DNA of 64,000 nt from Pelomyxa schiedti (GCA_020536535.1 JAHLWZ010000193.1:1-64000), one strand, 5' to 3'. Shown: positions 11,477 through 49,837, counted from the stretch's first letter. A program made the numbers and translations. The notes: a model not told the origin generated them from the letters alone.

Positions 11477-14400
11477 ATGGTGCTACGTTTTGTGGGCATA
11501 GTAACTGTCGTGTGGTTTTGTGCAGCAGGACCATGGACAGGTGCGCGAGGTCGGGTGATCGTCTCGATGGGTGGGAGTAAGTACTTTGGAGACGACGGAT
11601 CGAAGATGTACTCGTCAGTTACGCGGCCGGGGGCCGTTGGGGAGTGGGAGCAGTACTGGCAACCGGGGCTGGCCTACGGCGGCACCAAGGACGACTCGTC
11701 CTCGTCTTTTTGTATATCGGCGAGGTCGTGTTCGTCTGACAGTTGGTGCGTCTACCCGTGCTCCTGCTTCCCTGACCTCGCGGATTCTTTGGACTGTCCA
11801 TACCGTATGTGGGCTTTTTTTTTTTTTTTTTTCGCCCAGTTTTTGTATTAAGGGACATCTAGCGTATCCAATGGTTAATACTACTGTGTGGAGTCCTATG
11901 TGGCCGGAGGCTATGAGTGGCGAGTATGACAACGTCACGTTTGTTGTGCTTAGGGGAAATCCAGATGCACTAAACTCGACTTATTTTGGGGGAGTGTACA
12001 TTGTCCAAATGACTGCCACTGATCGTACGTTGGGGGTTAATACCAAACGAGTTTTCCCCGATTCTGGTCACAACTGCGATTTATCCACTTTGCTCAGTGT
12101 ACCAATCGTTCAACAGTTCAGTGACTCGACCATTCACTGGGTTGTGGTGTGTCAAGGCATTTTGTATTGGTACGAGATGTCAACAGAGGCTGGATCATCG
12201 TTTTACCCTAATTCAACTGTACCACTGCTGGCTCACCCTACCTCATTGCTTCCGTCCAGATTTCTTACAGAATTTCCTTCAATATTAGCCGTGGGTGCTA
12301 CATGGGTCCAGTGGTTCTCTCCTGAATATAGTTCATACCCATACAATGTCACTGTTACTGAAGGTGAACTTATCTTCGCAGCCTCGCATCTGGGTATCAG
12401 TTTTCTTGATCGTTTTCATTTTTCTCACCTGGGTGTAGATACGGCCAGCGTCATCACATGTTCTTCAAAGGATGGAAAAGTGTTTATCAAACTCCATTTT
12501 TGTGATGGCAAAAACTTTAATTGGGTCTCTCAAACACTCTATTCGTGGGATGAATCAACTGAGGTCTGTGCACTCACTGTGGATGACCTGCAGGAGTCTG
12601 TTCCACTTGACGACATGATAATATGTATGACGTCTAACTGGCTTCATTGGCTGGTGAGAGACGAATCATATGACTGGCAGGTACATTGACACTGACATTG
12701 TTTTAGCCACCTAATTTAATAGGTATACAATGAGAGTTTTCCATCCAGCCACCCGTCCCTTACTATTATTGCCTCGAAGTACTTTGTCCAATATTCTTTT
12801 TTAGCTGAACGTTACTTAGAGATCAGCAGACCTCGACTTACTCCTTGCTTCTTGCTGATAACTACACATTTTCGGAGATTTATCTTGAATTTTCCAGTTG
12901 TACCGACTTCACAGATTCTTCCCACTGTGTATCACAAGGGTGCAGCTGGTGCTTAAATGTCTGCCTCGATGAATGTCCAGACTGTTCAAGTTACAGCGAC
13001 TCAGACAGTTGCCAGCTGTTGTCTCTTCATCCTTTCCTCTAACCTGCTGATGCACTCAATAGGGATCATTGCGTATGGTGTGATCAAACTTTATCATGCC
13101 AGCAATATTGTACTGTATGCAGTGCTTTAGAGGTTGGCACCTGCAGGTGATTACTCTGTCCTCTTTTCTTTCGTTTCTATTTACACTGCTTCCAGTGTTA
13201 GTGGTTGTATGTGGAGCGATGAGTTGTCAACCTGTATGGCCCTTGAGGACTGGTGCTATTCATGTTCAGGAACCAAGTGCGAATATCCTTGTTTGACCTG
13301 CAACTCAGATATTTGCTCTGCAATTCAATGCCAAAACTGTTCAAATATCACTGAAGAAACCCACTGTTTAAAAAAGTAGATCCTATATCACTCTCCTAAT
13401 TGTGACTCTCGTTCCTAAGCGCAAATTTGTGCACCTGGTGCTCTTCTCTTCAACAATGTCAGTCCAATTCAGCTTTCTCCTCCTACGCTTGTGATTGCTC
13501 CCACGATAGTACTTGCAGCTCTTCTGGCTGCTTTTTAAACACTACCGTCAAGCAGTGTTTATCACGATGTCTAAACCACTCTGCCTATAGCAAGGCATCA
13601 TTTTTTTCTACGTACATTCAGTCTGCTCATTACTCTGAAACCACTGATATTGTCTTTGATGATGATGGCAGTATGACCCTCCTCAGATTTATGTTGCTCA
13701 CTTCTTTTGGCAGATTCTTATATCCTTCATAGAGAGGGGGATGCTCCTCTCCTTCTGAAGGTAAACCCAAGTGGAGAGGTGATACAGTCACCTAAAACCT
13801 TCGATAGAACTGGTTATGGCAAGGCCCTTGCACTTGATCCGGCCACAAGATTACTTTACGTAGTTGGTTCTGGCCAGAACGTGCCTCTTCTCACTGAAAA
13901 TGCGCCGCAAGGACTACTACAATCCATTGTGCCGTCCACTGTTGATGCTGCAATCCTCGCCTATGATATTGATGTAATGAATATTGTTTGGAGTGTGAGA
14001 TGGGGAGGACAGAGTTCAACTGAAGAGTTTATGGACATCGTTGTGATTGCAAATAAATACCGGTATCTAAAGACGTTGTAAAAAGAAACGTAACATGAAA
14101 TGGCCACAGAATTCTTGCAGGAAATGTACCATGCGATTTTCAAATTTTGTGGGGCTCATGTGCTAACTCTTGTGGAACCTCAATGAGTGGTCTTATCCTA
14201 ATTTTTGACAATTCAAATGACTGGAACATGCTGCATTGCGAATATACACCCAGTTACCTTCAATTTCGATCGTCTCCCCACTTATCGTATACTTTAGCCA
14301 CCAGTGATACTGTTGCTGTTACTTTAAACTCCCTTTCTGCCAAAGACAACGACGGTTCTCTTTCTGTTGCCGCTCTCGGAACTGTGCAGACTAGTAATGA

Positions 14401-17400
14401 TATTGACTGTCTTGTTCTTCTTATCTCTTCAGCTGACGGATACAACTTTGTGTCTCATTATACAATATTTGGAAGTGATGTATGGGAATATGGCAACCAC
14501 TAATGAGCTCATCATTGGACAGCAAATCGATTCTTGTTCAAAAATATGGGTAGAAAAAGATATTGCCTATATATCAGGTTCTGGATATGCCGGCTTTGCG
14601 GGGATGCAGAATGGCAAATCTGTGTCGAAGTTCCCTGCTACATTTGTGTCCATGGTGAGATGTCATGACCAAGAAAATTCATTAATTCCTGCAGATGAAC
14701 ATGAAATGGTGGGAAAATAGTTCCCTTCCGCAGGCTGGGTTTTTCATTAGTGGTCTCTCTGCAATAAATGATATTGTCGTATGGCAGGACTATCTATACT
14801 TTGTTGGATCAGAGTCTTCTAGAGGCTTGGAGGCTGCCACTGTTGGTAAGACATAAATTATCAACAAACCTCTATTAACACACGTAGGGCGGTTTGCTCT
14901 GGGTGATGATGGCAGGCTATCTTCTGGACTTGTGGATACGAAAGAGAGCTTTTATTCCAGTGGGTCAAGTTCATTTTCTGACCTATGTGTTGGAACCCGG
15001 ATTTACACGGCTGGTTCCACCACAGCATCTGACTTTATCACAACGTCTACCTACCTCTCAGACGGTATTTTTCTTTCTTCGTTCGTGAGACTGATTATTT
15101 GCTAGGTTTCAAATATGCCCTCATTGTTCTTGCAATTTCTACTGAAGGTTTACTCATTATTTCCTAAATACTCTATCTTAATTAGCTAGAGTCAAACTTC
15201 TGTGTTCCAGTCTTTCCGGCATATCCGGAATCAACAACTGAAATCTTCTTATACTATAACGAAAATAGCAGTGAGCCGGTGATTTACTGGTGTGGTGATT
15301 TACGAACTTGGTGAAAAGTCTCAATTTACCAAGGCCCGTTGTCAAATTTGAGTGGAGCGAAGCATATATGGGGAAGCCCTGCAATTCTTGCGTGAACTAT
15401 ACTGTACAAATTTCGAACCACAACGGCATTACAAATGTACAAACGTATCACTAAAATAAATCTAACAACCTTATTCAGATTTCTGCTGGAACAAATCTTA
15501 CTACTACATATACCTTCCCACTAGAAGAAACTTCATACTGGAGTTGGCATGTAAAGGCTTGTGACAGCTCTACTTGCACTTCATCACTTGAGTCCTCCGT
15601 TTCACTAACTATTGGTGAGTTGTGAAGATATTTGATCTCTTTCTTCTTGGGAGCTTACTTTATTAGAACCACATAAATGGAGTACCGACTTAGCTGATGA
15701 AGGTTGGGCCTCATCTTGGAGTGGTGGCCAAATATCCTTTCCCTCTAATGATGGCACTGACACTACTTTTCTTCGCTTTACTGCAACTGAAGAAACGGAC
15801 TCGTTTGAAATAAATTTTTCCACAGACCACTATCTTCTTGATGTTGGCACTACATGGTAGGTCCAATTAAGTGAAAAAACTTGCAGTTTACATTTCTTAG
15901 GATTTCTCTAAAGATAAGAGCCCTGAATTGTAACAACTTTAAGGTGCTTCTTAACTCATATTCTTCCCATACCAACTTTAGAGTAGGAGGGACCAATTCT
16001 ATTTTTACGTGATTACAACAATAACTATACTCTGTGGAATGCTTCAAGCTCCTTCATCCCACTGGGTGGAGAATGGTTATTCTCTATAAGAAACCAAAAT
16101 ATTTACTTTTCATTAGGTACACTATCTGCTTTCCAATGGATAGAAGTGTAATTACCGTATTCAATTGGGAAATGGATTCCTCAGATGAGTATCAGTCTGC
16201 ATGGACAGTGAAACTTACTCTCTCTGGGTTTCTGAATGATACTGAGGGAGATTTTATGGTGGAGATTGACGACTTCTTCCCGGTTGCCCACTGCGTTCCA
16301 TGTATACAAAATTGGTACTTGTAAAGACAGAGTACCTGAACTCTTCCAGATCTTGGAAATTCTTCTGAGGACAGTGAAGAGGGGCTTTCAAAAAACTCCT
16401 CAGAAGGTATTGACTGGAAAATGCTTGTGGAGATATGTGTACCAGTTGGTGGTGTCACTGCAATTATCATCGTTGTAGGCAGTGTGACAATAACAGCACT
16501 TGCATGTCGACGATTCAACAAGTAGCAACTAGATTTTTACCTTAGTGTAACTCTTGCTAGAAATAAAGAGAATTCAAAGAAACCTGAGCAGGTATGGACA
16601 ACCGGTGTCGAGCTTAATCCTATTGATACCTTCAATGATACTAACTCGATGTGAGTGTACAGTTTCCTTCACTTTCACTTATTTTTGTCAGTTTGGTGGA
16701 ACACTCTGCCTTCCCAATTTCGTTCGACGATTTTACATTAGCCTTCCAATATTCTACAAGACAAGCTCCAGTAGGAGAAAGCATCAAGCAGGATTTAACG
16801 TTGACAAATAACTCCGATTCTAAGTTCACCATTAAGTTCTTCCCACCAGAGAGGTAGTCACTCATTCTTTGCCAAACCTCAAATACTCTGCAGTGCCAAA
16901 GTGTCCTTTAACTTTGACCCTGTTACAGTGCTTCTCAAACCAGTACGTAAATGTGTCTTGGTTTCTTGCTTATCGTCACCCAAGGGAGAAGAAATGGTTG
17001 TTACTGCTACTGCCTTGATAACTTGCACAACAAGGCTAGATATGTATCTAATTGCTGCTGTATCACCACATAGTACTTGGAAGGATCCAATAAAGCACAC
17101 AAAAATACCTGTTGTATTGGAATCCAAGCTGTCAGCCAAGCTAGGTACTATAGCCTGCTGGAGTTATCTCCTAACAGAATCAAAGATCCAGATGAATTCG
17201 TTGTTTTCACCCCGGCAATTGGAGAAGGTAGCTTTGGTTCTGTATACAAAGGAGAGTGGAGAGGTCAGCAGGTTTGTTTCCGCCACATTCAACTCAAGAC
17301 CAACCTGTACAATAAGGTAGCAATCAAGGTTCTCAAAAATCAGTCATTTAATGATGCATCGGTGAAAGCAGAATTCGAGCACGAGGTGGGAGTCATGGAG

Positions 17401-18763
17401 TCTTTCCGTTCACCCTATATTGTTCACTTTGTAGGCATGGTGTCCTTTTACCATCATTTTCTTTGACATGATGGGTAGGGGCTTGTCACATACCTGGGAA
17501 ATTAGCTATTTTAACGGTTTTCATTCATGCTTAGCCTGTAACTAAGCAGAGATAGGAATTTATTGCAAATGGAAGTTTGCGATCCTGCTACCTCAAGAAT
17601 ACATTATCTCTCCCCTTTAAGGTAAAGTGCCTTTTAGATGTTGCCAGAGGTATCCATTACAACCAAGACATGCATTCCACTTATGTACCCCAGGAATGGA
17701 TTACCTTCATCGATCTGCAATTTTACACAGGCACTTTACCTTAAGGGGTTTTTTTCGATCTCCCTTATTTTACTTAGAGACCTGAAACCTGATAATGTAT
17801 TGATGTCCGCTGTAGATTTAACCTCTCCCGTGGCTTGTAAATTGGTTTGCCCTCAGGAGACGTGTACATCAATTTCATAACTGGCCAACAGATCGACTTT
17901 GGCACCACTCGAGATATTAACGTGTCACAAGCAACACAATTCTACACAAGAGGAGTCGGCACTCCCGTTTGTATGCTTTCGTATTCTATTATTACACTGG
18001 TTTACTTGTTTTGTTCAAGATATGGCCCCTGAAATTCTGGATAATGGGAAATACAGCCAAAGTGCTGATGTATTTAGGTAGCCAAAAAACCTCTGTTACC
18101 TGGTAACTGTACGTCACCCCAATTAGTTTTGCAGTTACATTTTGGTCACTTCTCACTGGATTGGATCCCTATGTGGAATCCCGGTTTTCCACAAGCTGGA
18201 AAATCGCGGATTTCATCATTAAAGGAAACGTAGGCCCACAATACTCTCCCATAACCTCACTCTGACACGATTTGCAGAGGCTGGCCATCCCTGCTGACGC
18301 CCCAGCTGATCTTTCTGCACTCCTCTCCAAGTGTTGGGCAGTGGAACCACACGAGAGGCCCAAGTTCTCAGCAATTGTTGTGCAATTGGAGACCAAGTGG
18401 GTGGACTTGATGCAAGACAAGCGGCTCAGGAAGCAAAATCCATTAACCCGCAAGAAAGTAGAACAACCACAGCTTGCCCCTGTTCCGGATACAGAACCTG
18501 CCCCTCTCCCAGAAGAGGGTGGGGTGGCCATGGAGAACCTGATTAAGAAGAATCCGAATGATGGGAATGACACACCTCAAAACAATCACCAAGATGGAAG
18601 AAGCACTCCTGATGTTGACCTTGGGAATCCCCCTGAACCTAAGAAGCCAGGGAAAAAACACACCCATCATCACCATCGGAGACACCACAGGCACAAGGTT
18701 GCTGATTCTGATTCCAGTTCTGGCTCTGCTGGCAATAGCAGTGATGACGATTATGATAAATAA
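11477..18763 (+). CDS. Receptor-like TKL Ser/Thr kinase, paralog A (≥20 exons). Domain order: signal peptide; large Cys-rich ectodomain with possible β-propeller-like repeats; TM helix (~16440-16520, ICVPVGGVTAIIIVVGSVTITALACRRFNK); MSP/PapD-like juxtamembrane module (~16650-17150); kinase domain (17200-18450); His-rich tail (HTHHHHRRHHRHK).
   Basis: Signal peptide MVLRFVGIVTVVWFCAAGPWTGARG. First intron has a gtatgt donor at about 11808 and a T18 tract. Kinase motifs were assembled across introns: IGEGSFGSVYKGEWRG | VAIKVLKN | GMDYLHRSAILHRDLKPDNVLM | IDFGTTRD | YMAPEIL | KCWAVEPHERPKF. The exon-by-exon architecture matches paralogs B and C. Confidence 0.8.
11813..11832 (+). repeat. Poly-T homopolymer (about 18-20 nt) in intron 1 of receptor kinase A.
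   Basis: Run of T at 11813-11832 directly after the gtatgt donor. An analogous T-run sits at the same intron position in paralog B (41375-41392). Confidence 0.9.
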
Positions 18764-18855
18764 ACACAACCATTTTTCTGTTGTTCTTGCTTTTTTCAGT
18801 TGATTACAAAAAAGGCCAAAAAAGTTTAATTTAGTAATTTGACTTTCTATTTGTT

Positions 18856-21639: not shown

Positions 21640-24600
21640 CTATCATTTCCGCACGTCAGTGACTTCTGGCACAATTGAAAAGATCGATAAAGGCACTGCT
21701 AGGCATATATATTATCCTGCTCGAACCATACAAGATGCCAAAGCAATTTATGGTTCTCTTCTCAGAGAAAAGGTAAAGTTAGAAAACTGTTTAATTTTTA
21801 TTGTGTTTGCAGACTTCAAAAAGCAACAAATATAAGAAAATAATGTTGGCTCTCTCTAACGTGGGGACTATCACAGGTTTCCATTTCACTGGTCCCTTTT
21901 CCCTTAAAATCTTTCCTAGGTAGTATTTCAACACTCCCAGTAGCTGTCCGTGACTTGCTTGTTCTCTTATACAACGAATCCGTTTTGCAACTTTGTCAAA
22001 AGGAAATCCAACTTTCAAAGCTGTCTGCACCACAAATAGACAAGGCTCTTGTGTGCCTTAGCAAATTGCAACAGGTTACCCTTCTTTCTTGGCTGTACAC
22101 AAACCCTTGTCCCTATTAAGGCAATTTCCTTGCATGAACCACTTGATGAAGCCACAGCCCAGCAGTTATCAACAGAATTTTATTCTAACTTACCTCTTCC
22201 CAACCACAAACAAGTGGTAAGAATTCTCCAGTCGGAAACTTTGTAATTTTTTTTCAAGGTCATAACCTCAAGTGATAGCCTTCTTATGTGGTTAGATACA
22301 CTTCAAACAATTCGGGATTTTTCCAACTTCGGTGAAAGTTCTTTTGACTTCACTGGGCGATTGAACGATGTTGATATGTTGTATCCTTTTTAATATGGAC
22401 AATTTATAAGACACCCAAGTACCTTAACCCCCAAGATACTACTCTCTCGACTGTAAACTCGAGCCTCTTCAATTTGATTCCTCTGAGTACATTTCTATCT
22501 GTGAAATGGTTTCCAGACATGCACCCTTGAATATTGGAAACATATTCCATGTATCAAGGCACATGGATCTCAGCTCCTTCTCGTCAGAAATGGGAAATGA
22601 AATGCTCCTCTTTCATGGATCGAAAATAGGCAATTGGTTGGGAATCCTTTCTCGAGGGTTGCTCCTCCCACAGATAGTAACTTCAGAGTATGGAGTAAAG
22701 CGTACAAATGCTGGGAATATGGGAGCAGGGCTTTATTTTTCCGACAGTCCACTGGTATCACTTAAGTATACCACTCCTTCTGCCTCCGGCTCCAGGTTAT
22801 TGCGGTATTCTCTGGAGGTCTCTAATTCAATGCTTAGGTATTTACTCATCTGCCGAGTGGCCCTTGGAAAAGTTCACATTTTGACGAACTACAATTTATC
22901 TCTGGTTGCTCCCCCACATGGGTTCAACAGTTGTCATGGCGTCAAGAGCACTTATAATTTAACAAGTGATTTTGACGATGATGAGTATGAGCAATCAACT
23001 TACATTAGGGGCTGTTCCCTTTTCATGTAATTCTCAGATATGCTATCTACACACCTGCTCAGCAATACATCCAGTATCTAGTTGAAATAAAGGGATACCA
23101 ACCGACAATGTTAGCTTCATCGACGAAGTCTATGATTTCTCAAGCTCTTGCTGGTATGCGGGAACGGCAGCCTGTATATTGTGCAGACATTCCGGGGCCA
23201 CTTCTTGATGTTGAACCTGTAAGTCATTTTGCACTCTCTTTCATTAAATCTCCAAGGTAACCGAAAAAGCGGGCCTTATCTCAACAAGTGGAGAGCCCTT
23301 GCCACTTGAAAGTGTTAGCCTTCACGCTAAATTGATAGGTTCTTCCATAGAGTCAATTTCCATAACAAACAAGCCTTTTAGACTTGGTTGGCCAGGTCGT
23401 CATACTTCAAGAATATCATAATTCAGGAGACTCCGCCATCCAGGCCAAATATGTCTTTCCTTTGGATGAAAAATCTGCCGTTGTTGGCTTCGAGTGTTTC
23501 ATTAATCGTATTCTTCGTCTTCATTTGTTTTCGCTTTAAACCGTTGCAGACAAACATATAGTGGGTGTGGTGAAAGAGAAAGAGCAGGCGCATAAGGAGT
23601 ATAAGGAAGCCATCGCACGTGGTGATGGTGCATACCTACTAGATGAGGCCAAATCAAATGTCTTTACTGTTTCTGTGGGAAATCTACCACCCCATACCAA
23701 AGTGGTTATCAAGATAACATGTTCGCAGGTTTCTTTTCGATAATCATTAACTATTTCTAGATATCACTGAACTTGGTCTTGAAGGTGATGCTAGAAAGTG
23801 GATTTGTCCAGTTAACCTTGTATCACAGCAAAAACAAGGCGCACTGGCTCAGGTCACACAGGCCTCAACCAAGTCAGTTCATGTTGCACAACATGAGGTA
23901 CTGTCATATGCTTTACGTTTCCTTATCCTATCAGGGAGCGTTTACCATGGAAGTCTCAATAGCGATGCCTCATGTGATTCATGCAATTGAAAGTCCATCA
24001 CATTCGATTCGCTATAAGCAGGCATCCAAGAAGGCAACATTATTCCTATTGGATCATGGTATGATGATTCTGGGTGCTAAAAAAGTGCATAAGAAAAAAA
24101 CCCAGAGGCTCTCAGTAGCGACTTCATTCTTGTAATTCGTCTATGTGATAGCCACACACCATTTATGTGGGTTGAAAAACATCCTTTGTGTATCAATACT
24201 CCTGATAATGAATTGCACGTTGCAATGGTGGCTTTGTATCCCTCTTTGAGTTCTCCGGAGGCACATTCACAATGTTTCCCCTTTGTTTTGTTTTGTGTTA
24301 ATATTCCCAGATACACTTATTATTGATCAATCTGCTAGCATGGCCTCAGCACAATTACAGTGCAAGCAAGTGGCACTGCAATTGCGTACCCTTCATCCCC
24401 CTAGAATTACCGTAATTCTTTGTAGTAAACGGGATACCACCTCTGGCGAACTTCAACCTTGTTATATTTGGCTCTTTCTTTGAAACTCTCTTTCTTTCAT
24501 CAACTCAAAAAACACGACAAACTGAAGAGATTGCTGTGACTACTATTAAAAGCATGGCTGCTGATTGGGGTTCAAGTGTTTTGTGGCCTACTTTAAAATC

Positions 24601-39521: not shown

Positions 39522-40667
39522 ATGCACGCGGAGCCACCTTCGGAATACGACCTTCCGCCGTCCGCATCTCCAGCAGCGCCACTCGATTTCCGACAACTAA
39601 CTCCACTCGATAAGTGGTGGGAATATTACTTGCTCGACCCGACCACGAACACGCTGACTCCTAAGAAACGACAGGAGCCAGACTACGTCATGGAGGGTCT
39701 GTATTTGGGAGATCAAGAGAATGCGTACAACCACGAGGTTAGTTCCCGTTCTTTGTAAGTAAGGGGTCAATGGTTAGTGGGAGGTGAAGTTCTGACTCCG
39801 CTCCATGGTGTATTAGATCCTGGAGAAATACCGCATAACTCACGTGTTGTCTTTTACTATGGATGACAAAACACATCACGAGTCCCGCTTCCCGAAATAC
39901 ATCAAATGCGCTACTATAGCGTATGCACTCAATACATTCCAGGAATGTATTCAATTTCGGTAGTGTTGAAGATAAGCGAACAGCAAACATTGCACAATAC
40001 TTCCCAACGGCACTCGCATTTATTGATCAGGGCCGCGCGGCTGGAAGTGTCCTCGTACATTGTGTCTGGGGTATGAGCAGAAGTGCCGCTGTGGTCGTTG
40101 CCTACATTATGTTCAGGTATTCTCCCTTGTGCTGAGTTATAAATGAATGACAAGGTCTTCCACAGGCTTCGTATGAAATTTACTGATGCTTTATCACATG
40201 TTCGGAAAGCTCGCCCTATAGCAGCACCGAACGATGGATTCTTATCGCAGTTGGACGAGTTTGGAAGGCAACTTGCAACAGTGGAAATGAGCGTGCAGTT
40301 CAACACCGTGTGGGGGGAGATATTGCATGTTGTTGGGTCAACAGAAGAGCTGGGGAACTGGAGGCCCACGGAAGCCAACCGAATGACGTGGTTCCCCGGC
40401 AATGTGTGGAAAATTGACCTGCCATTGTATGGGAAGGCCTTTGAGTACAAGTACATTGTGGTGCGTGACGAAGACGGAGAGGATCCAGCAATGAGATGGG
40501 AGGTCTGTGGCAACAGACTCTATGATGGCTCAAGGCGGTTCGTCAGGGACAGGTGGGACTTCAACCCCATCACCCTCGCTGGTATCAGTGGACCCTCCAA
40601 TTTCTTACTTCATCATCCAACTCAGCCGACTACAGGCTCCCCAAGTAATAATGGCTTGAGGACATAA
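39522..40667 (+). CDS. Dual-specificity protein phosphatase (classic HCxxGxxRS DUSP catalytic loop) fused to a C-terminal CBM20 starch/glucan-binding module. A laforin/SEX4-like glucan phosphatase architecture in DSP→CBM order; 5 exons.
   Basis: DUSP motifs EPDYVMEGLYLGDQENAYNHE | ILEKYRITHVLS… | VLVHCVWGMSRSAAVVVAYIMFR. CBM20 exon VQFNTVWGEILHVVGSTEELGNWRPTEANRMTWFPGNVWKIDLPLYGKAFEYKYIVVRDEDGEDPAMRWEVCGNRLY (conserved aromatic and GxW positions of CBM20). Confidence 0.8.
40301..40560 (+). other. CBM20 carbohydrate-binding module within the DSP gene.
   Basis: LGNW…W…FEYKY…W motif pattern typical of starch-binding domain family 20. Confidence 0.7.
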
Positions 40668-41037: not shown

Positions 41038-44000
41038 ATGAGAACCAGAACAGGGGGAGGTGTGTTGGTTGTTGTCTTGACAGTAATCGCCTGCGTGGCG
41101 GTAGTTCCCTGCGGGGCCTGGGGACCGTGCGCGCCGTGCATGACCACGCCCGGGATCAACGTGTGGATCACAGCTAGATTTATAACGAATCTGAGCGTCA
41201 CGCGGCAGTGCGTACCGGTGGTGTGCGGTGGCGTGCCGACCACGGGCTTCGCCGACACGTTGACTGGAATGCGTCAGGTTATACTTATGGACCCATATGC
41301 GCCACTCGCTCAGTTTGCTTGGAACTGGGTTCCTCCTGTATCGACATGCAACGATACGTATGTTCCTCTTCCCTTTTTTTTTTTTTTTTTTCTTTTCCTA
41401 CAACAATTTTAAACCGACTTGGTTGTGGAGGAATGTGTTAGTATAATGCACAAATATTGGAAACCATAACCTTCGTTTAAATTATTCTTTAATGCCAGTT
41501 TTTGAGTTCATGTTGCTTGTATCAGTAATATAATAGACGGACAACAATTATCTTCAATGTAGCAAGCCTAACAAAGCTTGTAACACTAAAAAGTATTTGC
41601 GATTCTTGTACATACACAACGGATTACATCCAGCGTCTGGGAGTATCAGGAGCAACTTATACGCCAGCTGCAGCCACTGGTACAACTGTATCAGTGACTG
41701 GATTGTCGTCGTTTGGGTCTCCACCCCCCAGAGGCACTCTCTCTTACTTCAACGCCACTGTGGGCTGCGCAGCGGCATCTGTTATTACACTATCATTTAC
41801 GCTGGACGTGTGGTGTAAGAACGTCGGAAATGCTGTGAGTGTGTTAGATTCCACTTCTTTTTCACTTTCCTGGGCATGTGCAAAGCCTGGCTGCCCTGCC
41901 TACTGCCACCCAGATCACGGTTACTGTGACCCTTACCATGGTGTCTGTATTTGCACACCACCCTGGACAGGCGCAACTTGTGAGTTTATGTTTTCTTACA
42001 CTCCCACAGTGTGTCCAGGCCAGTATATAACCATGTCTTATTACGTCCCGTATGTAATGTAATATCGTCTCCCCGTAATTGAACTCTTCTACTCCCTCCT
42101 GCAATACACAATAGTGCTTCGATGTATGGGTTGCCACAAGCTCTCACCGTCATGGCTGCTCGCCTCTTTCACAGTATTATGATGGTTGAAACTCGTTATT
42201 TTCTACATTGGAAGGACACTGTCAATGCCAGTGACCCTGATCTTGCATATCCCGTGAACGGAACTGGTTATTTTCCCGGCTTTTATACACCAGGAGCCTA
42301 TCCAATTATGGTGTATGCTGCGTTAGCCTCACCAATCACGTACCTCACGGCAGTGGTAAGACTCTTTTTGCTCTGTTGTTTCTAACATAACCAACCAGGT
42401 TATTGTCAAAGATTGGAGTTTATGTGGTGTAAATGCCACCTGTGGGGATGGTACCTCTAACGATTGTGGTGCTACCAACCAGTGGGGCCAGTGCTACAGT
42501 GGGAAGTGTGTGTGCAACGAAGCCCGTTTCTGGTCTGACTGCTCCCGAGGCTGCTCTGGCTACACAGTTGTAGAAGATGGGAGTGGTGTTGTGAAAAGTG
42601 ATTACCCTCCTGATGGCAGTGTAGCTTCCATGTGCTATCTGAGGAAGAATATTTGCAGATGGCTTATAAGTCCAACTGGGAAATATGATATTATAAAGAT
42701 GAACTTCACCTCATTTGGTATCATGGATCCTGATAAGTTGCTGGTGTTCAGTAGTGACGAGAATGGAGAAACAGACGAGCTCCTGGCTACTTATGGATCC
42801 ACATTTACAGAAGACTACCTTGAAGTAGAGGCCCACCATGTCTTTTTGGAGTGGTCCTCCGGTCCCTACAATACCTACCAAGGCTTTGTACTCGAATACA
42901 GTACCAAGAATAAACCAATTCCCGATGCTGGACTTGCTCTGATATTCTTTGCTGCTGCTGTTGTAGGTTTGGGTGTGGCGATTTGCCTAGCTGTCGGTGC
43001 TAGAATAATCGTAGTGAAACGCAGGAAGAGACTTCAGGCAGCCAGAAACATGCCTGCTCTCAATCTGAAAGATATGATGACTGAAGAAGAGATGGCTTCC
43101 CTTTGTGGGGTAGAGAAAAATCAAGAAATACTGGAGGAAGTTCGGGTTCAGCTGGATAAATATGAACTAACATTTGGCGTCACCGGGTTGTGCCCTGTGC
43201 AGAAGCCAATGTTTGACAAGATTACAATTTTCAACAAGAATGGCTCAACACTGCATTACCAGTTTTCAGTTTTGAACTTGTCTTATCTTGTCGCAACCAG
43301 TATCAGACCTGGGGTGGGCAAAATTCCCCCGCACAAGCGCATGGAAGTTGACGTGGAATGCTCTCTTCTGATGACAACTCGTTTCCAACATCCTATACGA
43401 CTGGATATTGTTAAACCTACTGGTGAGCTTGACAATGAGGGAAAGGAGATTGTGGAAATTCTCGCCACAGCGTACATCTCTGTCACTTTAGAAGGGGAAT
43501 TGTCAAGGTGGATTGACCCTGCCGATTTCACAGATATTTCTGCCCCTATCGCCAGGGGTGGTTTTGGGTAAGATTTACCGATTTCCAGTATCCGTTTAAC
43601 CCCCTTAACAAGGTGTGTATACCGAGGGAAGTATAGAGGTGTCGATGCCGCCCTCAAAATGCTCTTGCACCAGGAAACTTTCAATAAAACCGAAAATGAG
43701 GGGTTTGAAAAGGAATGCAGCTTAATGAATAAACTGAACCATCCTTGTGTTGTCACTTTCATTGGAGCATCCCATGTCCCTGGTTCCTCTCCCTCATTCC
43801 CCTCCTCTCATCTCATTACTGCATCTAGGAAGATTTTGCATCTGCTGTGAGTGGATTCCATTTGGTAGTTTGAGCTCTCTACTCAAAGCTGAGGGAGTTT
43901 TTGACATTCCTATTCACCGCGAGTATTTCTTGATCAAGTGTGCTCTAAATACGGCTGAAGCTTTGGCATATTTACACACAATGAATATTCTGTATCGTAA

Positions 44001-45025
44001 GTATTCATCTGTATTCAACAACCCTTACACTCGCAGGTGATCTGAAATGTTCAAATGTTCTAGTCTGCTCGCTGTCACTTGACGCGGACGTTAATTGCAA
44101 ACTCACCGGTATGGTTGCGGTTGGAAAGTATACTACAACATTCACGTAAACTTCAGATTTTGACACTGCCCGCAATGTGGACAATCCAAGTTAGAATCTT
44201 GTCAAACACCTGTGTTCCTAACTTCTTTGCAGATCTTGTTATGATGTACACAACCAAGCTGGGCACCGGTATCTTTATGGTAAGCATGACCAACTACACA
44301 GAAGTTTAACCTTCTCCAAGGCCCCTGAGCTGCTAGCGCCATGTACTGGCTACAACAACAAAGTAGACACATACAGTTACTCCCTTTGCTTGTGGGAAAT
44401 GTGGACGCGCCAAGAGCCATGGGCAGATGTTACACCCGAATGGGCTGTTCGCAAAATGGTCAAATCAGGGCAGAGGCCTCCACTGGACAAAATGGACCCC
44501 CCAGCCCCCCCCTCGATCCTCGATCTTATACAGAAGTGCTGGCACCAAGACCTCCACGCAAGGCCAGCGTTCCCCGATATAGTAGAGATTCTAGAAGACA
44601 TCAAGGCCACTTACAAGGACCGCCTTAACGTAGAAGAAAGCGATTCAAAGAGCGAGGGCCATCACAAGAAGCATCACAGGCATCACCACCACAAGGGTAA
44701 GAAAGGGAAGAAAAGCCAAAGCAGAAGTCGCAGCCGCAGCAGGAGCGCAAGCGCCTCGCCAGCCAGTGCCAGTGCCAGTGCCAGTGAAAGTGAGAGCAAG
44801 AGCAAGAGCAAGAGCGGCACCGGAGCCCACAAAAAGCACTCCAGCAAGAAGCACAAGAAGCACGAGAAGAAGAGCGCCAAGTCCAAGTCCAGCCACAGTG
44901 ATAGCCACAAGAAAGCCAAAGGCAAGAAGCACAACAAAGGGCACAGCTCCAAATCCCACAAGCACGGTTCCTCCTCCCCCTCGCCCTCCCATTCAAGCCA
45001 CAGCAGAGGATCCTCATCCTCTTGA
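41038..45025 (+). CDS. Receptor-like TKL Ser/Thr kinase, paralog B. Domain order: signal peptide; Cys-rich EGF-like segment (…CDPYHGVCICTPPWTGATCEF); CUB-like module; TM helix (LALIFFAAAVVGLGVAICLAVGARIIVV, ~42920-43010); MSP/PapD-like module; kinase; His/Ser/Lys-rich tail.
   Basis: ATG at 41038; signal peptide MRTRTGGGVLVVVLTVIACVAVVPCGAWG; intron 1 has a gtatgt donor and a poly-T tract at 41375-41392. The 353-aa exon 42510..43571 holds the CUB-like stretch (CYLRKNICRWLISPTGKYDIIKMNFTSFG…), the TM helix and the MSP-like stretch (…SIRPGVGKIPPHKRMEVDVECSLL…). Kinase motifs: GGFG|KVYRGKYRG…AALKML | DLKCSNVLV | DFDTARN | CLWEMWTRQEPWADV…CWHQDLHARPAF. Stop TGA at 45023-45025. Confidence 0.8.
44700..44990 (+). 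repeat. Coding low-complexity tail of kinase B ([44 protein letters not shown]…) including a hexanucleotide microsatellite (gccagt)n at 44764-44790.
   Basis: Direct reading of the sequence: (gccagt)4-5, then (gagagcaag)n. The antisense ORFs 44645..45324 are artefacts of this repeat. Confidence 0.7.
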
Positions 45026-45268: not shown

Positions 45269-48200
45269 ATGCCCCGGAGCGCCTCGTATGTCGTTGGCGT
45301 GTCAACTTTTGTCGCTGCGGCCACCGTCCTCCTCCTCGTACAATTAATCTCGGGCGCCGTGGGTACGACGCCTTACTGCATCAACGTCGTCGGCTACTTC
45401 CCGTACAACTTCTCGTACCCCGACTGGTACCACGTCATCCCGGTTCCGATCGTGTCGTGCGACGTCGTCAGCACCGCGTTCATCGACGAAGGATACCTGT
45501 CGCCGGCGTACACGCCGCAGATCGACGGCGTGTACCGTACGCTGAAGCTCGCGTGGTGGGTGTCGCTAAAGACCACGCCCTCGCCCTCTTTGCCGAGGGA
45601 CGACAGAGGAGTGTTCTACTACGACGGCTACGAGACTGGCGTGCACAACGGCGTGCGGGTTCGGTTACCCGCGGAGCAGGATGACTTTGCTAATCTGGGT
45701 GGGGGTGCTGATGTGGATTATGGGACTGCGGGTGACTCCTATGGTGCTTCTGTGAACGAGCCGAGGTACTACCCTTACTCGATGGAGTATGGCGCTGGAC
45801 GGCCCAGCGTGTTCACGACCGTGGACAATGGCGAGGATGGGGATGGATATGAGCATGTGGAGGTGCGGGATATTACTACTCGCGCTGGATCCTCTGATTC
45901 AGAGTCGTCGTCGTTGTCGTCTTCCGACTCCGACTCCGACTCTGACTCTAGCTCCGAATCTGATTCCGAGTCGGAGTCTAGCTCGTCATCTTCGGAAGAA
46001 GTATTTCCCTGTTTCTTCCCGCCATAAGCACTAATCGTAGTAAAGGTAGTGCAAATTCCATTATACAAGAGGGCTAACGGCGTGCACTTTGCTGCTGTTT
46101 GGACTGCTTTTTCAGTTGCAAAACCTATTTAGTATGCCATTTCCCACTAAAAGAAAATTCTCCCTTAAGTGAGCCCCTAGCATGTTCTGCACACAACAAA
46201 AGTCCGTTTCAAGTAACAGTATTCTAACCTGTGTTCAGCACCTCAATGACGGTCACTGGACTAAGCGCATCGGGCCAGGCTCCTACTTCAGCTAGCTTCT
46301 TCAATATCACTATTTCGTGCCAGGAACCAGCTGTTGTAGCAGCATCTATGTCTCTTATGCTCAGTGACTCTTCATCTATAGTCACCTTTGCCCCTCGATG
46401 GATGTGCTACACACCTGGTTGTCCTTCTTGGTGTTCATTACATGGGGTCTGTGACACCCTACGCGGAACTTGTGTATGCAACGAAGGATGGGAGGGCACT
46501 GATTGTGCGATAAAAGTTGTGACAAACTGGGTCTTTTGCCCCCAAGACCCGATCATCGTCTCTTATGAAATACCGTGAGTTCTTGCACCCTTCCAAAGTG
46601 ACTTGAATAACTCAACTCCATCAGGTACACCACAAGTGGAGTGACTGGGACAGGCAACTCAATGTTTATGACAATCGTCACGCCTTTAACCCCTATAGCA
46701 TATGATTATCGCTATTTCATGACCTGGGCTACTGTTGTTCCGTACCTTGCAACGGAGGGATATAACAAAGATTACTCCGGCACTCATCTGACACCAACGT
46801 ACTTGGCTCCAGGGTCGTATTATATGAGGGTTTCAAATGACCTGACTGATACTGTTGTACTACTGAAGCAGATGACAGTTAAAAGTTGGGCAGCCTGCAA
46901 TATTTCTGCAACTTGCGGCAACGGCACCAACAACACTTGCAACAGCGAAACCGGTAAAGGCACCTGTGTAAGTGGTTCCTGTCAATGTGCTTCTGGGCGG
47001 TTTTGGTATGACTGTTCCAGGGGCTGCTCTGGCCTTGCTTTATCGTCCTCAAAATCCGGAGAAGTGAGGTCCGACTACCCAACAAGCGGTAACATTGATG
47101 ATATGCGTGATTCTAGTGTTATGTCAACCTGCTATTGGCTTATATCCCCACCCGATAGCTATGACGAAATTGTACTCAATTTCACATTTGTGGGACTGGA
47201 CTACATTGGGGTACTTTACGTATACAAATCTGATGAAAATGCTTCTGTTGGTGAACTTGTTATGACTATTAACAGACTGGCTCCAGCGCCTAAGGGTATC
47301 AAAACTCGGCACGTCCTCGTTGTATACGAAAAACTTGCCACTATGAGTACACATGGATTTGCTCTTTCTTACTATACACATAACATACCCCTTTCTGGAA
47401 TCGCAATCGGTTTCACGGTATTCTGCAGTATCCTTGGGGGGTTGATACTGGCAACGGCAGCTGGAATTGCCATTTACTTCCTTGTAAAACGACAAAAACG
47501 GTTGAAATTGCAAGCTATGAACGAGCCAGCTGTTGAAGAAGATATGATGACACCCGAAGATCTTGCTCATGATAGAGAGAAATTTGAAGGGCAGAAGGAA
47601 GAATTCGTGGCTGCTGGCTTCCAAGTGGACAAGACACGATTAATGTTCTCTTTGAAGCAAACCGATCCCTTCCCAATAAGAGAACAGCGGGAGGATCTTC
47701 TGAGTATATCTAATAACACGGGAAGAGATGTACAATACTGTATTTTCGTTCCAAAACAAGAATTGCTGATGAAGTTTGCCGTGAAACCGGGCAAAGGAAA
47801 AATTCCAGCTGGCGCAACCATGGTGGTTGAGATTAAATTGGAACTATTCTACACAACCCATTTTGACTACCCCATCCGAATTGAAATTACTTCCTCCAAC
47901 GGCACAGTACAATGCATGCACATAGACGTCAAATTTGAAGGCGCACACTCTGTGTGGATTGATCCAGAAGATATTCGCTTAGACCAAGAAATAATTGCAT
48001 CTGGAAGCTTTGGGTATTTAGCCATGCTCCCATGTTTTAAATACTGGGTAGCTCACCTGAATTAGGAGTGTTCACCGGGGAGCCTACAAAGCGCAGATGT
48101 TAGCTATTAAAGTACTAAAAGATCAAGAAGGGTTAAGTGATAAAGATATCGAAGAGTTTGAATCTGAATGCAAGCTCTTGAATCAAATTCACCATCCAAA

Positions 48201-49837
48201 GATTGCCCAGTTTATTGGAGCTTCCCACATTCCAGGTGAGGCACTCCCATGACATACACATGGGTGTTTAATCTTAAAAAGGTAAACTATGCATATGCAC
48301 TGAACTTGTGCCAAGTGGCAATTTGGCAGCTTTTCTAAGATCTCCAGCGGAGATACCCTTTATTCTAGTGCTTAAATGGGTTCAGAACGCTGCTGAGGCG
48401 TTGAAATTCTTACACCAAAACAAAATTCTTTATGGTTCGTCCTGCAACTTTTGTTGACTGAAGTTTTAAGTATCACAAGGTGACCTGAAATGCGCAAATT
48501 TGCTTCTTGTCTCCACAGCAATAGATGCTTCAGTGAACTGTAAACTAACTGGTTGAACTCCTCCTTCCTGGAAAAAAACTAATCTTTTCTAAAGATTTTG
48601 GCACTGCTCGCACTGTTGAGGATATTGGTGCGTAACTGCCACTTCTCCCTCTGCCCCCTTAACGTTGTCCAGATCAACCCAAACAGTACATCAGTCCACA
48701 AGGAACACAGGCTTACTTGGTTATCTACTTTTTCGCAGCAAGTTCTTCTGTTTAACTATAATCTTTGTAGGCTCCCGAAATTCATAGAAATTCCAAAGAA
48801 GCAGAAAAAACTCAGTTGAACTATGCCGTAATCTTTTCTTTCCTTTTTCTTTCCTCTCAAAGCCCCCTTCACTCCAAAAGATCGATGTTTACAGCTTTGG
48901 CATTTGCATGTGGGAGATGTGGGCTCGCCAAGAACCTTGGAACACGTTGCTTTTATGGGACATCGGACCCGCAGTTGTTGCCGGGCAGAGGCCGCACATA
49001 TCGTCGCGGTGCCCCGAGATGTACGCGGAACTAATGAAGCGATGCTGGGCTGATACTCCCAACGATCGCCCACACTTCGACACGATAAACAAGGAGTTGG
49101 AGTTCTGGATCAAGCCCGCGATAGAGTACGTGAGGATGAACGTGCAGAAGCACAAGAAGGGCGTCCTGACGGTCAACACGTTTGCTCCCACGAAAACCAG
49201 CGGCGCCAAGACCAAGACCAGCGACGCGTTCTCAATCAACAGCAGCGGCTCTGGGTTCGCCAGCAGCATATACAACTTTGCCAACAGCCCCACTCCCACT
49301 GGGACCCCCAGCTCCAACTCGGCGGCCGACGCCAAGGCCGGCGGCGCCAAGACCAGCGGCAGCAACGCCATGACGAACTCCCCGGCGTCGAGCAGGACGT
49401 CCAGGGACAAGACAGGCCGGGCAAAGACATCGAGGACGAACAGGGGCAAGACAGGCGGGGGAAGGGACGATGACGGAATTGAGATGGAGCCGCTGGGCAG
49501 CAAGAAGACAGCGTCGGCTGCGGACGAGGCCACGTACGAGTCGCTGTCTGAGGAGCAGAAGGAGGAGGTACGGAAGCTGGCCGCGATCGTGTCTACCAGC
49601 AAGAAGCACGGGACCCAGGCACTGTCGAACACGTCTGGGGGCTCTGGGGTCAGCAACGCCACCACAACGTCTGGCGACACAAACAAGTTCAAGCAGCTCG
49701 ACGCCACGCTCAACATCCGCGGCCGCACGGTGATCAGCGGCACCACCGCAACATCGACAACAACGACACCCACACCACCAGTGTCAAGTCTGGCCACAGC
49801 CAAAGTAGTCCCCACTGGCAAGAAGGACAACGTGTAG
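45269..49837 (+). CDS. Receptor-like TKL Ser/Thr kinase, paralog C, immediately downstream of B. Same ectodomain–TM–MSP-like–kinase layout; exon 1 carries an acidic (SD/SE)n stretch; C-terminal Ser/Thr/Gly-rich tail.
   Basis: ATG at 45269; signal peptide MPRSASYVVGVSTFVAAATVLLLVQLISG. Exon 2 (46231..46578) aligns with the paralog B EGF-like exon (CSLHGVCDTLRGTCVCNEGWEGTDC). The 474-aa exon 46641..48065 carries the CUB-like stretch, TM helix (IAIGFTVFCSILGGLILATAAGIAIYFLV) and MSP-like stretch (KFAVKPGKGKIPAGATMVVEIKL). Kinase exons: SGSFG|…YKAQMLAIKVLK… | DLKCANLLL | DFGTARTVEDI | APEIH | ICMWEMWARQEPW…CWADTPNDRPHF. Confidence 0.8.
45895..45996 (+). repeat. Acidic (Ser-Asp / Ser-Glu)n coding repeat ([37 protein letters not shown]) at the end of kinase C exon 1.
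   Basis: tccgactccgactccgactctgactct… periodicity. A gtattt donor directly follows at ~45996. Confidence 0.6.

What the first reader, a model, noticed from the sequence alone, without database searches (positions are those of the whole stretch)
11477..49837. Three paralogous receptor-like TKL kinases with a shared ectodomain–TM–MSP-like–kinase architecture, including a tandem pair
Genes A (11477-18763), B (41038-45025) and C (45269-49837) share exon-level colinearity on the plus strand:
- a signal peptide
- a Cys-rich EGF-like exon (…CDPYHGVCICTPPWTGATCEF in B; CSLHGVCDTLRGTCVCNEGWEGTDC in C)
- a CUB-like β-sandwich stretch
- a single TM helix
- an intracellular Ig-like module
- a TKL-type kinase (HRDLKPDN / DLKC(S/A)N, DFGT(T/A)R, APE)

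B and C are head-to-tail neighbours only 244 bp apart, which suggests a recent tandem duplication. A is a more divergent copy with a much larger ectodomain.

Intron 1 sits at the same place in A and B, with the same gtatgt donor and a T-rich tract.

A local family of this kind is a good candidate for a lineage-specific sensory or adhesion receptor system.
Basis: partly seen in the sequence, partly recalled or inferred. Interest (0 to 1): 0.8.

Follow-up and report, generated by a model that had tools for sequence, protein, structure and literature searches.

The report
Amoeba receptor kinases with CUB ectodomains
The window, from the anaerobic amoeba Pelomyxa schiedti, holds three real single-pass receptor-like kinases that share a transmembrane, MSP/ASH-like and TKL kinase core, but only the old tandem pair B and C share an EGF and CUB ectodomain, as part of a gene family of at least 13 copies.

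Summary
All three genes exist at the stated coordinates. The window is Pelomyxa schiedti (Archamoebae). Gene A is GenBank KAH3765656.1. Gene C matches KAH3765664.1 exactly. B lies 243 bp upstream of C.

Each protein reads signal peptide, ectodomain, one TM helix, an intracellular all-beta module, a TKL-type kinase and a low-complexity tail.

- **Intracellular module:** AlphaFold gives pLDDT 93.6, and the best fold matches are OCRL ASH, HYDIN and CEP192 PapD-like, and MSP domains.

Three parts of the reading fail.

- **A's ectodomain:** its roughly 1,340 residues show no detectable homology to B/C or to any known domain. A also shares no intron at the same position and phase with B/C.
- **"Recent" duplication:** B and C are about 34% identical, and each has a closer paralog on another contig.
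- **"Local family":** B/C belong to a family of at least 13 genes in P. schiedti, with members in Mastigamoeba and Mastigella. The TM-ASH-TKL cassette occurs behind LRR, periplasmic-binding-protein-like and Cys-rich ectodomains in other amoebozoans.

B carries DFD instead of DFG, and C carries YGD instead of HRD. Each change is conserved in that gene's nearest paralog.

These are generically annotated genes with an apparently undescribed architecture. Function is inferred only.

The parts
11477..18763 (+). Gene A: receptor-like TKL kinase, about 34-35 exons (GenBank KAH3765656.1, 1911 aa)
   Evidence: Hand and DP gene model. It is 95.7% identical to P0271, with differences only in a few ectodomain exons.
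11477..11551 (+). A signal-peptide-like N-terminus (MVLRFVGIVTVVWFCAAGPWTGARG)
   Evidence: Read directly from the sequence. No predictor was run.
12890..13570 (+). A ectodomain Cys-rich stretch with repeated C..GC.WC-type motifs (PSI-like by eye)
   Evidence: No Pfam match, so the PSI-like label is visual only.
16433..16507 (+). A transmembrane helix (ICVPVGGVTAIIIVVGSVTITALAC), followed by RRFNK
16711..17199 (+). A intracellular ASH/MSP-like (PapD-like) module, spliced over 4 exons
   Evidence: Pfam HYDIN_VesB_CFA65-like_Ig E 5e-4 and Cep192_D3, both below cut-off. phmmer finds 31 homologous modules. Alignment.
17218..18412 (+). A TKL kinase domain (GEGSFGSV, VAIK, HRDLKPDN, DFG, YMAPE), including two GC-AG introns at 17435 and 17731
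   Evidence: The spliced sequence is identical to the GenBank protein.
41038..45025 (+). Gene B: receptor-like TKL kinase, 10 exons. The preferred model is 1126 aa with exon 2 starting at 41594; the alternative start is 41537.
   Evidence: The 41594 acceptor aligns better to paralog P0122.
41877..41987 (+). B EGF-like module 1 (CAKPGC...GATCEF)
   Evidence: Pfam EGF_2 E 1.4e-3, below cut-off. The Cys residues are invariant across the 23-sequence family alignment.
42423..42554 (+). B second Cys-rich EGF-like module, ending in the family hallmark FWxDCSRGC
42552..42911 (+). B CUB domain, next to the membrane
42927..43016 (+). B transmembrane helix, followed by KRRKR
43140..43529 (+). B intracellular ASH/MSP-like module. 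It lies in the same exon as the CUB domain and the TM helix.
   Evidence: AF2 pLDDT 93.6. Foldseek hits OCRL ASH, HYDIN, CEP192 and MSP.
43548..44605 (+). B TKL kinase domain (RGGFGCV, AALK, YRDLKCSN, DFD instead of DFG at 44099-44173, APE)
45269..49837 (+). Gene C: receptor-like TKL kinase, 11 exons, 1343 aa (GenBank KAH3765664.1)
   Evidence: The DP model is an exact sequence match.
46405..46512 (+). C EGF-like module 1
   Evidence: Pfam EGF_Teneurin 29-32 bits (cut-off 24.3) and EGF_2 24-29 bits (cut-off 22.1).
47025..47384 (+). C CUB domain
   Evidence: Homologous to the B CUB domain. The family profile hits CUB-repeat proteins.
47391..47486 (+). C transmembrane helix
47613..47975 (+). C intracellular ASH/MSP-like module
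   Evidence: 32% identical to B over the juxtamembrane region, E 1.4e-26. Alignment.
47994..49114 (+). C TKL kinase domain (SGSFGSV, LAIK, YGDLKCAN so non-RD, DFG, APE)

Best explanation
A, B and C are type-I single-pass receptor-like kinases of Pelomyxa schiedti built on one conserved intracellular cassette. That cassette is a TM helix, a linker of about 40 residues, an ASH/MSP-like (PapD-fold) beta-sandwich, then immediately a TKL-group kinase and a basic, His- and Ser-rich tail.

B and C carry a shared ectodomain: a variable N-terminus, a beta-sandwich, an EGF module, a second beta-sandwich, an EGF-like module with the FWxDCSRGC motif, and a CUB domain. They are an old tandem pair within an Archamoebae-wide multigene family. 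A carries an unrelated orphan ectodomain of about 1,340 residues on the same cassette.

**Shown:** gene structures, domain folds, homology relations and family distribution.

**Inferred:** the ectodomains bind extracellular or lumenal ligands. CUB and EGF modules typically mediate Ca-dependent protein or glycan binding. Ligand-driven oligomerisation would activate the TKL kinase. The rigid ASH/MSP-like module would act as a dimerisation or docking platform that couples the receptor to membrane-traffic or cytoskeletal partners, by analogy with the OCRL ASH domain binding Rab8 and MSP domains binding FFAT motifs. The likely context is prey or particle recognition and phagocytosis, as for Entamoeba TMKs.
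For: - **Gene models:** they match GenBank proteins. Those annotations were made with transcriptome-guided PASA/EVM (PMC8887013).
- **One transcript unit:** in B and C a single exon runs through CUB, TM, ASH and the kinase Gly-loop (42399-43567 and 46625-48013). Ectodomain and kinase therefore belong together.
- **Kinase:** Pfam E 1e-42 to 1e-56. The nearest informative solved kinases are CTR1, MLK4, TNNI3K, Roco4 and B-Raf, all TKL group; the single top-ranked entry was a two-stretch EGFR chain that I set aside. The catalytic K, E, D, N and D are present in all three.
- **ASH/MSP-like module:** pLDDT 93.6. The top 50 Foldseek hits are almost all ASH, PapD-like or MSP domains, E down to 4e-7. 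Weak Pfam hits to Cep192, HYDIN, Motile_Sperm, OCRL-like_ASH and PapD-like appear across members.
- **Family:** 31 proteins at E<=1e-30, most of them matching nearly the whole ecto-TM-ASH profile. Those looked up come from P. schiedti, Mastigella and Mastigamoeba.
- **Cassette behind other ectodomains:** LRR, Cys-rich and periplasmic-binding-protein-like.
- **Topology:** Cys is enriched on the ecto side, 3.1-5.6% against 1.1-2.8% on the cytoplasmic side.
Against: - There are no functional data of any kind.
- Signal peptides and topology were read by eye, not predicted.
- B has DFD instead of DFG and C has YGD instead of HRD, so catalytic competence is unproven for both.
- The ASH assignment rests on a predicted structure with moderate TM-scores (0.5-0.6) and on Pfam hits below cut-off.
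- The Rab or FFAT docking idea is analogy only.
- A's ectodomain has no recognisable domain, so 'ligand-binding' is an assumption there.
- The B exon 2 acceptor is unresolved (41537 or 41594).
Confidence: 0.75

Rival explanations
1. B and/or C are pseudokinase or scaffold receptors. The altered DFD and YGD motifs would abolish or rewire catalysis, and signalling would go through partner kinases or through the ASH module and tail.
For: B reads DFDTAR and C reads YGDLKCAN. Both changes are conserved in the closest paralogs P0122 and P0121. They therefore look like selected states, as in known pseudokinase or non-RD receptor clades.
Against: The VAIK Lys, the alphaC Glu, the catalytic-loop Asp and Asn, the Mg-binding Asp and the APE motif are all kept in B and C. 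Pfam kinase scores are high. Non-RD kinases are usually active.
Confidence: 0.2
2. The proteins act mainly on endomembranes such as phagosomes or vesicles, with the 'ectodomain' facing the lumen. This would resemble the vesicle-associated DRK/VSK receptor-like TKLs of Dictyostelium rather than plasma-membrane sensors.
For: The juxtamembrane module's best fold match is the OCRL ASH domain in complex with Rab8a, a membrane-traffic interaction. Dictyostelium has receptor-architecture TKLs in the DRK family (PMC1420674). Their vesicle association is from my own recollection and was not checked here. Entamoeba PATMK is phagosome-associated (PMC2211552).
Against: No localisation signal was examined. 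CUB and EGF modules are classically cell-surface or extracellular. This rival is compatible with a receptor that cycles between the surface and phagosomes.
Confidence: 0.25
3. A, B and C form one local, recently expanded cluster from a single ancestral gene in this region.
For: All three lie on the same strand within 38 kb. B and C are adjacent. All three share the TM-ASH-TKL order.
Against: - A's ectodomain is unrelated to B/C.
- A's ASH module is 20-21% identical to B/C, against 25-34% to other family members.
- No intron in A coincides exactly with one in B/C.
- B and C are about 34% identical, and each has a nearer paralog on another contig.
- Two other P. schiedti pairs with consecutive accession numbers, taken here as adjacent genes, are equally divergent at 32-34%.
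Confidence: 0.03
4. The long fusion proteins are gene-model artefacts, and the ectodomain and kinase are separate genes.
For: A has about 34 short introns, including two with non-GT donors. My DP gene finder over-predicted introns at low penalty.
Against: In B and C one uninterrupted exon spans CUB, TM, ASH and the Gly-loop. The same architecture recurs in more than 20 independent proteins, including transcriptome-derived ones from Mastigella and Endostelium. The GenBank models agree. P. schiedti has 1.59% GC-AG introns.
Confidence: 0.02

Closest known systems
Entamoeba histolytica transmembrane kinase (TMK) family, for example PATMK
   Same: Both are from Archamoebae. Both are large multigene families of single-pass receptor-like kinases branching near TKL/Raf, and the Entamoeba ones are implicated in phagocytosis and sensing (PMC10463195; PMC2211552).
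   Different: [quoted passage not shown] No ASH/MSP-like juxtamembrane module has been reported for them. The only Entamoeba hit matched the kinase alone (71% coverage). No direct comparison was made here.
Dictyostelium receptor-architecture TKL kinases (GDT and DRK families)
   Same: These are amoebozoan TKL-group kinases with a signal peptide, an ectodomain, one TM helix and a C-terminal kinase, and their ectodomains are lineage-specific (PMC1420674).
   Different: Their ectodomains differ (gdt and drk domains, a TIG domain). No CUB/EGF ectodomain or ASH juxtamembrane domain is mentioned for them. No Dictyostelium protein appeared among the best 120 hits. Orthology was not tested.
Metazoan CUB1-EGF-CUB2 modules (C1r/C1s, MASPs) and CUB receptors (neuropilin, Kremen, cubilin)
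   Different: Here the module is fused through a TM helix to an ASH domain and a TKL kinase, in an amoebozoan. Pfam CUB is below the gathering cut-off. The Ca-site residues were not checked. Common descent versus convergence or transfer is unresolved, since bacterial CUB-repeat proteins also match.
ASH / PapD-like / MSP domains (OCRL ASH, HYDIN, CEP192, VAP MSP)
   Same: The juxtamembrane module has the same fold, and several members give weak Pfam matches to these families.
   Different: No known ASH or MSP protein that I could find has the domain sandwiched between a TM helix and a protein kinase. The FFAT-binding and Rab-binding residues were not examined. Sequence identity is only 11-18%.
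Plant Raf-like TKL kinases (CTR1, STY8/17/46, HT1), the names given to the P. schiedti paralogs
   Same: Among solved structures, CTR1 scores highest after a two-stretch EGFR entry that I set aside (E 1e-41). GenBank automatic names for the paralogs are STY8/13/17/46 and HT1.
   Different: The plant proteins are soluble, carry ACT or other N-terminal domains, and have no TM helix, ASH module or ectodomain. The names reflect kinase-domain similarity only.

Membership tests
TKL-group protein kinase | The ePK catalytic domain scores best with the Tyr/Ser-Thr (TKL/TK) profile and has an HRDLKxxN-type catalytic loop rather than the HRDLAARN of true tyrosine kinases. | tested here: met
   PF07714 gives 189, 142 and 156 bits for A, B and C. 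The catalytic loops read HRDLKPDN, YRDLKCSN and YGDLKCAN. The nearest informative solved structures are CTR1, MLK4, TNNI3K, Roco4 and B-Raf. No formal kinome phylogeny was done.
TKL-group protein kinase | A full set of catalytic residues: VAIK Lys, alphaC Glu, HRD Asp, the catalytic-loop Asn and the DFG motif. | tested here: inconclusive
   A is fully canonical. B has DFD in place of DFG, and C has YGD in place of HRD. K, E, D, N and the Mg-binding D are present in all three. Activity was not assayed.
CUB domain | A sequence match to Pfam PF00431 above the gathering score. | tested here: not met
   B scores 18.2 bits on the exon and 15.7 bits on the full protein, against a cut-off of 21.4. C gives no hit.
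CUB domain | The CUB beta-sandwich fold, about 110 residues, with the conserved Cys and Trp core. | tested here: met
EGF-like domain | A six-Cys EGF signature matching Pfam EGF models above cut-off. | tested here: met
   C matches EGF_Teneurin and EGF_2 above cut-off. B is below cut-off at 19.4 against 22.1, but its Cys residues align and are invariant across the family.
MSP / ASH / PapD-like superfamily | The seven-stranded Ig-like PapD/MSP fold. | tested here: met
   The AF2 model has pLDDT 93.6. Foldseek probability is 1.0 to OCRL ASH, HYDIN PapD-like, CEP192 ASH, MSP and VAP (TM 0.45-0.62).
MSP domain sensu stricto (PF00635, VAP-type FFAT binder) | A Pfam Motile_Sperm match above cut-off, plus the FFAT-binding surface. 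| tested here: not met
   Only 3 of 22 family modules give weak Motile_Sperm hits (best E 5.7e-5), and none of A, B or C does. Other PapD-clan families score similarly. The FFAT-binding residues were not examined. 'MSP-like' is therefore a fold-level statement only.
B/C-type CUB-EGF receptor kinase family of Archamoebae (defined here) | A colinear match over beta-sandwich, EGF, beta-sandwich, EGF-like (FWxDCSRGC), CUB, TM, ASH and kinase. | tested here: met
   B and C meet it, together with 11 further P. schiedti proteins, Mastigella P0123 and Mastigamoeba P0137, P0140 and P0143. Gene A does not meet it.
Entamoeba TMK family | [quoted passage not shown] | not tested
   No Entamoeba TMK sequence was compared. 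Only a kinase-only E. nuttalli hit was seen.
Dictyostelium DRK/GDT receptor TKLs | Orthology of the kinase domain, and the drk or gdt ectodomain. | not tested
   The sequences could not be retrieved with these tools, and none appeared among the best 120 hits.

The most novel reading that the evidence does not exclude
TM-ASH-TKL would be an ancient, modular amoebozoan receptor chassis onto which unrelated sensor ectodomains (CUB/EGF, LRR, Venus-flytrap/PBP, Cys-rich, orphan) were repeatedly shuffled. The ASH/MSP-like module would be an obligatory coupling device, for example dimerisation or Rab/FFAT-type docking, linking ligand binding to phagocytic membrane traffic. The CUB-EGF branch would be a non-metazoan invention or acquisition of a 'complement-like' CUB-EGF-CUB recognition module wired directly to a kinase.
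Probability: 0.2. Interest if true: 0.7.

Novelty: new variant of a known kind. Interest (0 to 1): 0.5.

Why it matters
Receptor kinases are usually discussed for animals (RTKs, TGF-beta receptors) and plants (RLKs). Amoebozoan TKL receptors are known from Dictyostelium and Entamoeba but are poorly characterised.

- **A reusable intracellular cassette:** a TM helix, an ASH/MSP-like domain and a TKL kinase sit behind very different ectodomains across several amoebozoan lineages.
- **An animal-like ectodomain:** one expanded branch uses EGF and genuine CUB folds, modules best known from animal complement, neuropilin and Kremen receptors.

If the ASH module proves to be a functional coupler, it would be a mechanism of receptor-kinase signalling not described in the literature I could search. 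It would also give a testable link between surface recognition and phagocytosis in anaerobic amoebae, including relatives of the pathogen Entamoeba.

At present the genes carry only misleading automatic names such as STY46 and HT1.

Tried and rejected
- **First homolog search:** the word-indexed search with B's large exon returned nothing. The exhaustive HMMER search later found a large family, so the first negative was a sensitivity artefact and not evidence of an orphan.
- **DP gene finder:** my first version over-called introns and allowed empty exons. It was re-tuned and then checked against GenBank proteins.
- **Hand model of C:** the micro-exon 46116-46168 and the acceptor at 48863 were wrong. 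The DP model is the exact GenBank protein.
- **Hand model of B:** exon 2 starting at 41537 is probably wrong. A start at 41594 aligns better to the paralog.
- **A's ectodomain:** blastp against B/C, hhalign against the 23-member family profile, Pfam on four segments at E<=1 and a PDB sequence search all found nothing.
- fold search against afdb50 was unavailable, which blocked a check of Dictyostelium and Entamoeba models. The look-up of encoding contigs for gene A was not on record.
- **Literature:** I found no description of an MSP/ASH plus TKL receptor, or of CUB receptor kinases in amoebae.


Full report
**Source and gene models**

The window is eukaryotic, with about 45% GC and many introns of 39-52 bp. 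I built spliced models by hand from three-frame views and with a small dynamic-programming exon chainer trained on B and C.

- Searching A's ectodomain returned one protein, P0271 (1911 aa), 'protein serine/threonine kinase [Pelomyxa schiedti]', on a 115,595-bp contig. Its accession, KAH3765656.1, came.
- My A model is 95.7% identical to it. The differences lie only in a few ectodomain exons. The kinase part is identical, including two introns that need GC-AG donors at 17435 and 17731.
- The DP model of C (1343 aa) is an exact match to KAH3765664.1 on the same contig.
- My first B model (1145 aa) is not an exact database sequence. A variant with exon 2 starting at 41594 (1126 aa) aligns better to B's closest paralog, with 12 gaps instead of 31.
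- The P. schiedti genome paper reports 7.4 introns per gene, 1.59% GC-AG introns and transcriptome-guided annotation (PMC8887013). This fits what I see.

**Architecture shared by all three**

Each protein starts with a hydrophobic signal-like segment. Each has one strongly hydrophobic TM helix followed by basic residues: A at 16433-16507, B at 42927-43016 and C at 47391-47486.

Each has a C-terminal kinase domain, with Pfam PK_Tyr_Ser-Thr and Pkinase at E 1e-37 to 1e-56. The nearest informative solved kinases to A are CTR1, MLK4, TNNI3K, Roco4 and B-Raf, all in the TKL group; the single top-ranked entry was a two-stretch EGFR chain that I set aside.

Between the TM helix and the kinase lies a module of about 125 residues.

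- A 22-row alignment of this module, with B as the target, gave an AlphaFold model of mean pLDDT 93.6 that is essentially all beta strand.
- Foldseek against the PDB put these on top: the OCRL ASH domain (in complex with Rab8a), HYDIN PapD-like domains, the CEP192 ASH/PapD-like domain, ciliary central-pair Ig-like domains, nematode MSP and VAP MSP domains. Probability was 1.0, E was down to 4e-7 and TM-scores were 0.45-0.62.
- At sequence level only sub-threshold Pfam matches appear. They all fall in the same group of families: Cep192 domains, HYDIN_VesB_CFA65-like_Ig, Motile_Sperm, OCRL-like_ASH, ASH and PapD-like.

It does not hold as membership of the MSP family proper.

**Ectodomains**

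B and C are homologous from B residue 156 and C residue 263 to the membrane, at 33% identity and E 1.5e-56. Their N-terminal 150-260 residues are unrelated.

- Pfam finds EGF_2 and EGF_Teneurin above cut-off in C and below it in B. CUB in B scores 18.2 bits, just under the cut-off of 21.4.
- A 23-sequence family alignment gave an AlphaFold model of B's conserved ectodomain with pLDDT 87.9.
- Foldseek also aligns more than 300 columns to CUB1-EGF-CUB2 fragments of C1r, C1s and MASP.

The membrane-proximal domain is a genuine CUB fold, preceded by an EGF-like module that ends in the invariant motif FWxDCSRGC.

Gene A is different. Its ectodomain of about 1,340 residues gives no match in any of the following:
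- blastp against B/C at E<0.01;
- hhalign against the family profile, probability 0.1%;
- Pfam at E<=1, apart from two noise-level hits;
- PDB sequences;
- the 5.8-billion-protein set, where it found only itself.

It contains a Cys-rich stretch (12890-13570) that looks PSI-like by eye only. 'Shared ectodomain' is therefore true for B and C and false for A.

**Kinase motifs**

A is canonical: GEGSFGSV, VAIK, HRDLKPDN, DFG and YMAPE. B has YRDLKCSN and DFD in place of DFG. C has YGDLKCAN, which makes it non-RD, together with a normal DFG.

The DFD is kept in B's closest paralog P0122, and the YGD is kept in C's closest paralog P0121. These are conserved states rather than decay. The catalytic Lys, Glu, Asp, Asn and Mg-binding Asp are all present.

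**Relationships and age**

- From the TM helix to the end of the kinase, B and C share six introns at identical position and phase. A has 14 introns in that stretch and none coincides exactly. Three lie 1-5 nt from B/C positions.
- A's ASH module is 20-21% identical to B/C but 25-34% identical to other family members.
- An exhaustive profile search with the B/C ecto-TM-ASH region found 180 proteins at E<=1e-3 and 31 at E<=1e-30. The full-length matches are P. schiedti paralogs on other contigs, plus Mastigella eilhardi and Mastigamoeba balamuthi proteins.
- C is 61% identical over the full length (71% on trimmed columns) to KAH3765976. B is 48-50% identical to KAH3759681. B against C is about 34%.
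- Two further pairs carry consecutive accession numbers on the same contigs, KAH3757286/287 and KAH3756911/912, which I take as adjacent genes. They are equally divergent at 32-34%. In a neighbour-joining tree the partners fall in different clades (no support values). This suggests an old tandem pair that was later copied, and it argues against a recent duplication.

**The cassette is modular**

The search with A's ASH plus kinase region returned dozens of proteins covering more than 90% of the query. Their N-termini differ: LRR plus TM (P0015), Cys-rich plus TM (P0030), a short stub plus TM (P0002), or none.

Profile hits restricted to the TM-ASH part include Endostelium zonatum and Mastigamoeba proteins. 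They also include metagenomic proteins whose automatic names contain 'ABC-type branched-chain amino acid transport substrate-binding protein'. I read that name as a periplasmic-binding-protein-like ectodomain; I did not scan those proteins myself.

**Mechanism**

What is shown is the anatomy. What is inferred is that these are type-I receptors. Their ectodomains would bind ligands, oligomerisation would activate the TKL kinase, and the rigid ASH/MSP-like module next to the membrane would serve dimerisation or docking.

The link to phagocytosis is by analogy only. It rests on Entamoeba TMKs (PMC2211552) and on the Rab-binding ASH domain of OCRL. Dictyostelium has receptor-architecture TKLs in the GDT and DRK families (PMC1420674). 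I could not test orthology with them.

**Literature and novelty**

The P. schiedti and M. balamuthi genome papers and a cross-kingdom survey of transmembrane kinases do not mention this architecture. A full-text search for MSP plus TKL plus amoeba found nothing.

The genes are deposited under generic or misleading automatic names. I rate this as a new variant of a known kind, amoebozoan receptor-like TKL kinases, and of moderate interest.

Noticed in passing
window 8100-11400, minus strand: There is a fourth kinase gene, oriented divergently from gene A. It has MORN repeats (10084-11245, PF02493 E 1e-12) followed by a PK_Tyr_Ser-Thr fragment (8639-9316, E 2.5e-7). It did not appear in the tblastn search with B and C at E<=0.01.
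   Followed up: partly
window 40143-40664, plus strand: Just upstream of gene B lies a CBM_20 starch-binding domain (E 2.8e-14). The sequence before it reads by eye like the end of a dual-specificity phosphatase, which would make this a laforin/SEX4-like glucan phosphatase candidate.
   Followed up: partly
window 22428-23027, plus strand: An exon encodes a PARP catalytic domain (PF00644, E 1.6e-21).
   Followed up: no
window 4866-7847, plus strand: A 994-codon open frame is rich in Glu, Lys and Gln and looks coiled-coil-like. It has no Pfam match.
   Followed up: no
window 17435-17478 and 17731-17777: Two GC-AG introns lie within the kinase domain of gene A. Both are needed to restore the conserved HFVGACHIPG and ILHRDLK sequences, and both are present in the GenBank model. 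The genome-wide GC-AG frequency is 1.59% (PMC8887013).
   Followed up: yes
window 11815-11832 and 41374-41391: Exactly 18 T follow the GTATGT donor of intron 1 in both A and B. Only four T runs of 12 or more occur on this strand of the window. A third (34745) follows a donor-like GTAAGT whose status as a donor was not checked. T tracts after donors may therefore be a recurrent intron feature, but their meaning is unknown.
   Followed up: partly
window 18653-18760 (A tail), 44660-45022 (B tail); paralog P0122: The C-terminal tails carry His/Arg/Lys runs (A: KKHTHHHHRRHHRHK; B: HHKKHHRHHHHKGKKGKK; P0122: RHRHRHHHRHHHHRH), followed by Ser-rich low complexity. This recurs across otherwise divergent family members and is unexplained.
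   Followed up: no
window 45890-46000 (gene C exon 1): A long acidic and Ser-rich run ([37 protein letters not shown]) sits in the variable N-terminal part of C's ectodomain. A similar Ser-rich stretch is present in paralog P0121.
   Followed up: no
P. schiedti paralogs KAH3756911/912 and KAH3757286/287 (P0134/P0133, P0129/P0126): Two more pairs of family members have consecutive accession numbers on the same contigs, so they are probably adjacent genes. Partners are 32-34% identical and fall in different NJ clades, which hints that an ancient tandem pair was duplicated as a unit.
   Followed up: partly
search tools: The word-indexed protein search missed every family member for B's 403-aa exon. 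Yet 48-61% identical paralogs are in the collection, and the exhaustive HMMER search found them. Negative results from the indexed search should not be read as 'orphan'.
   Followed up: yes
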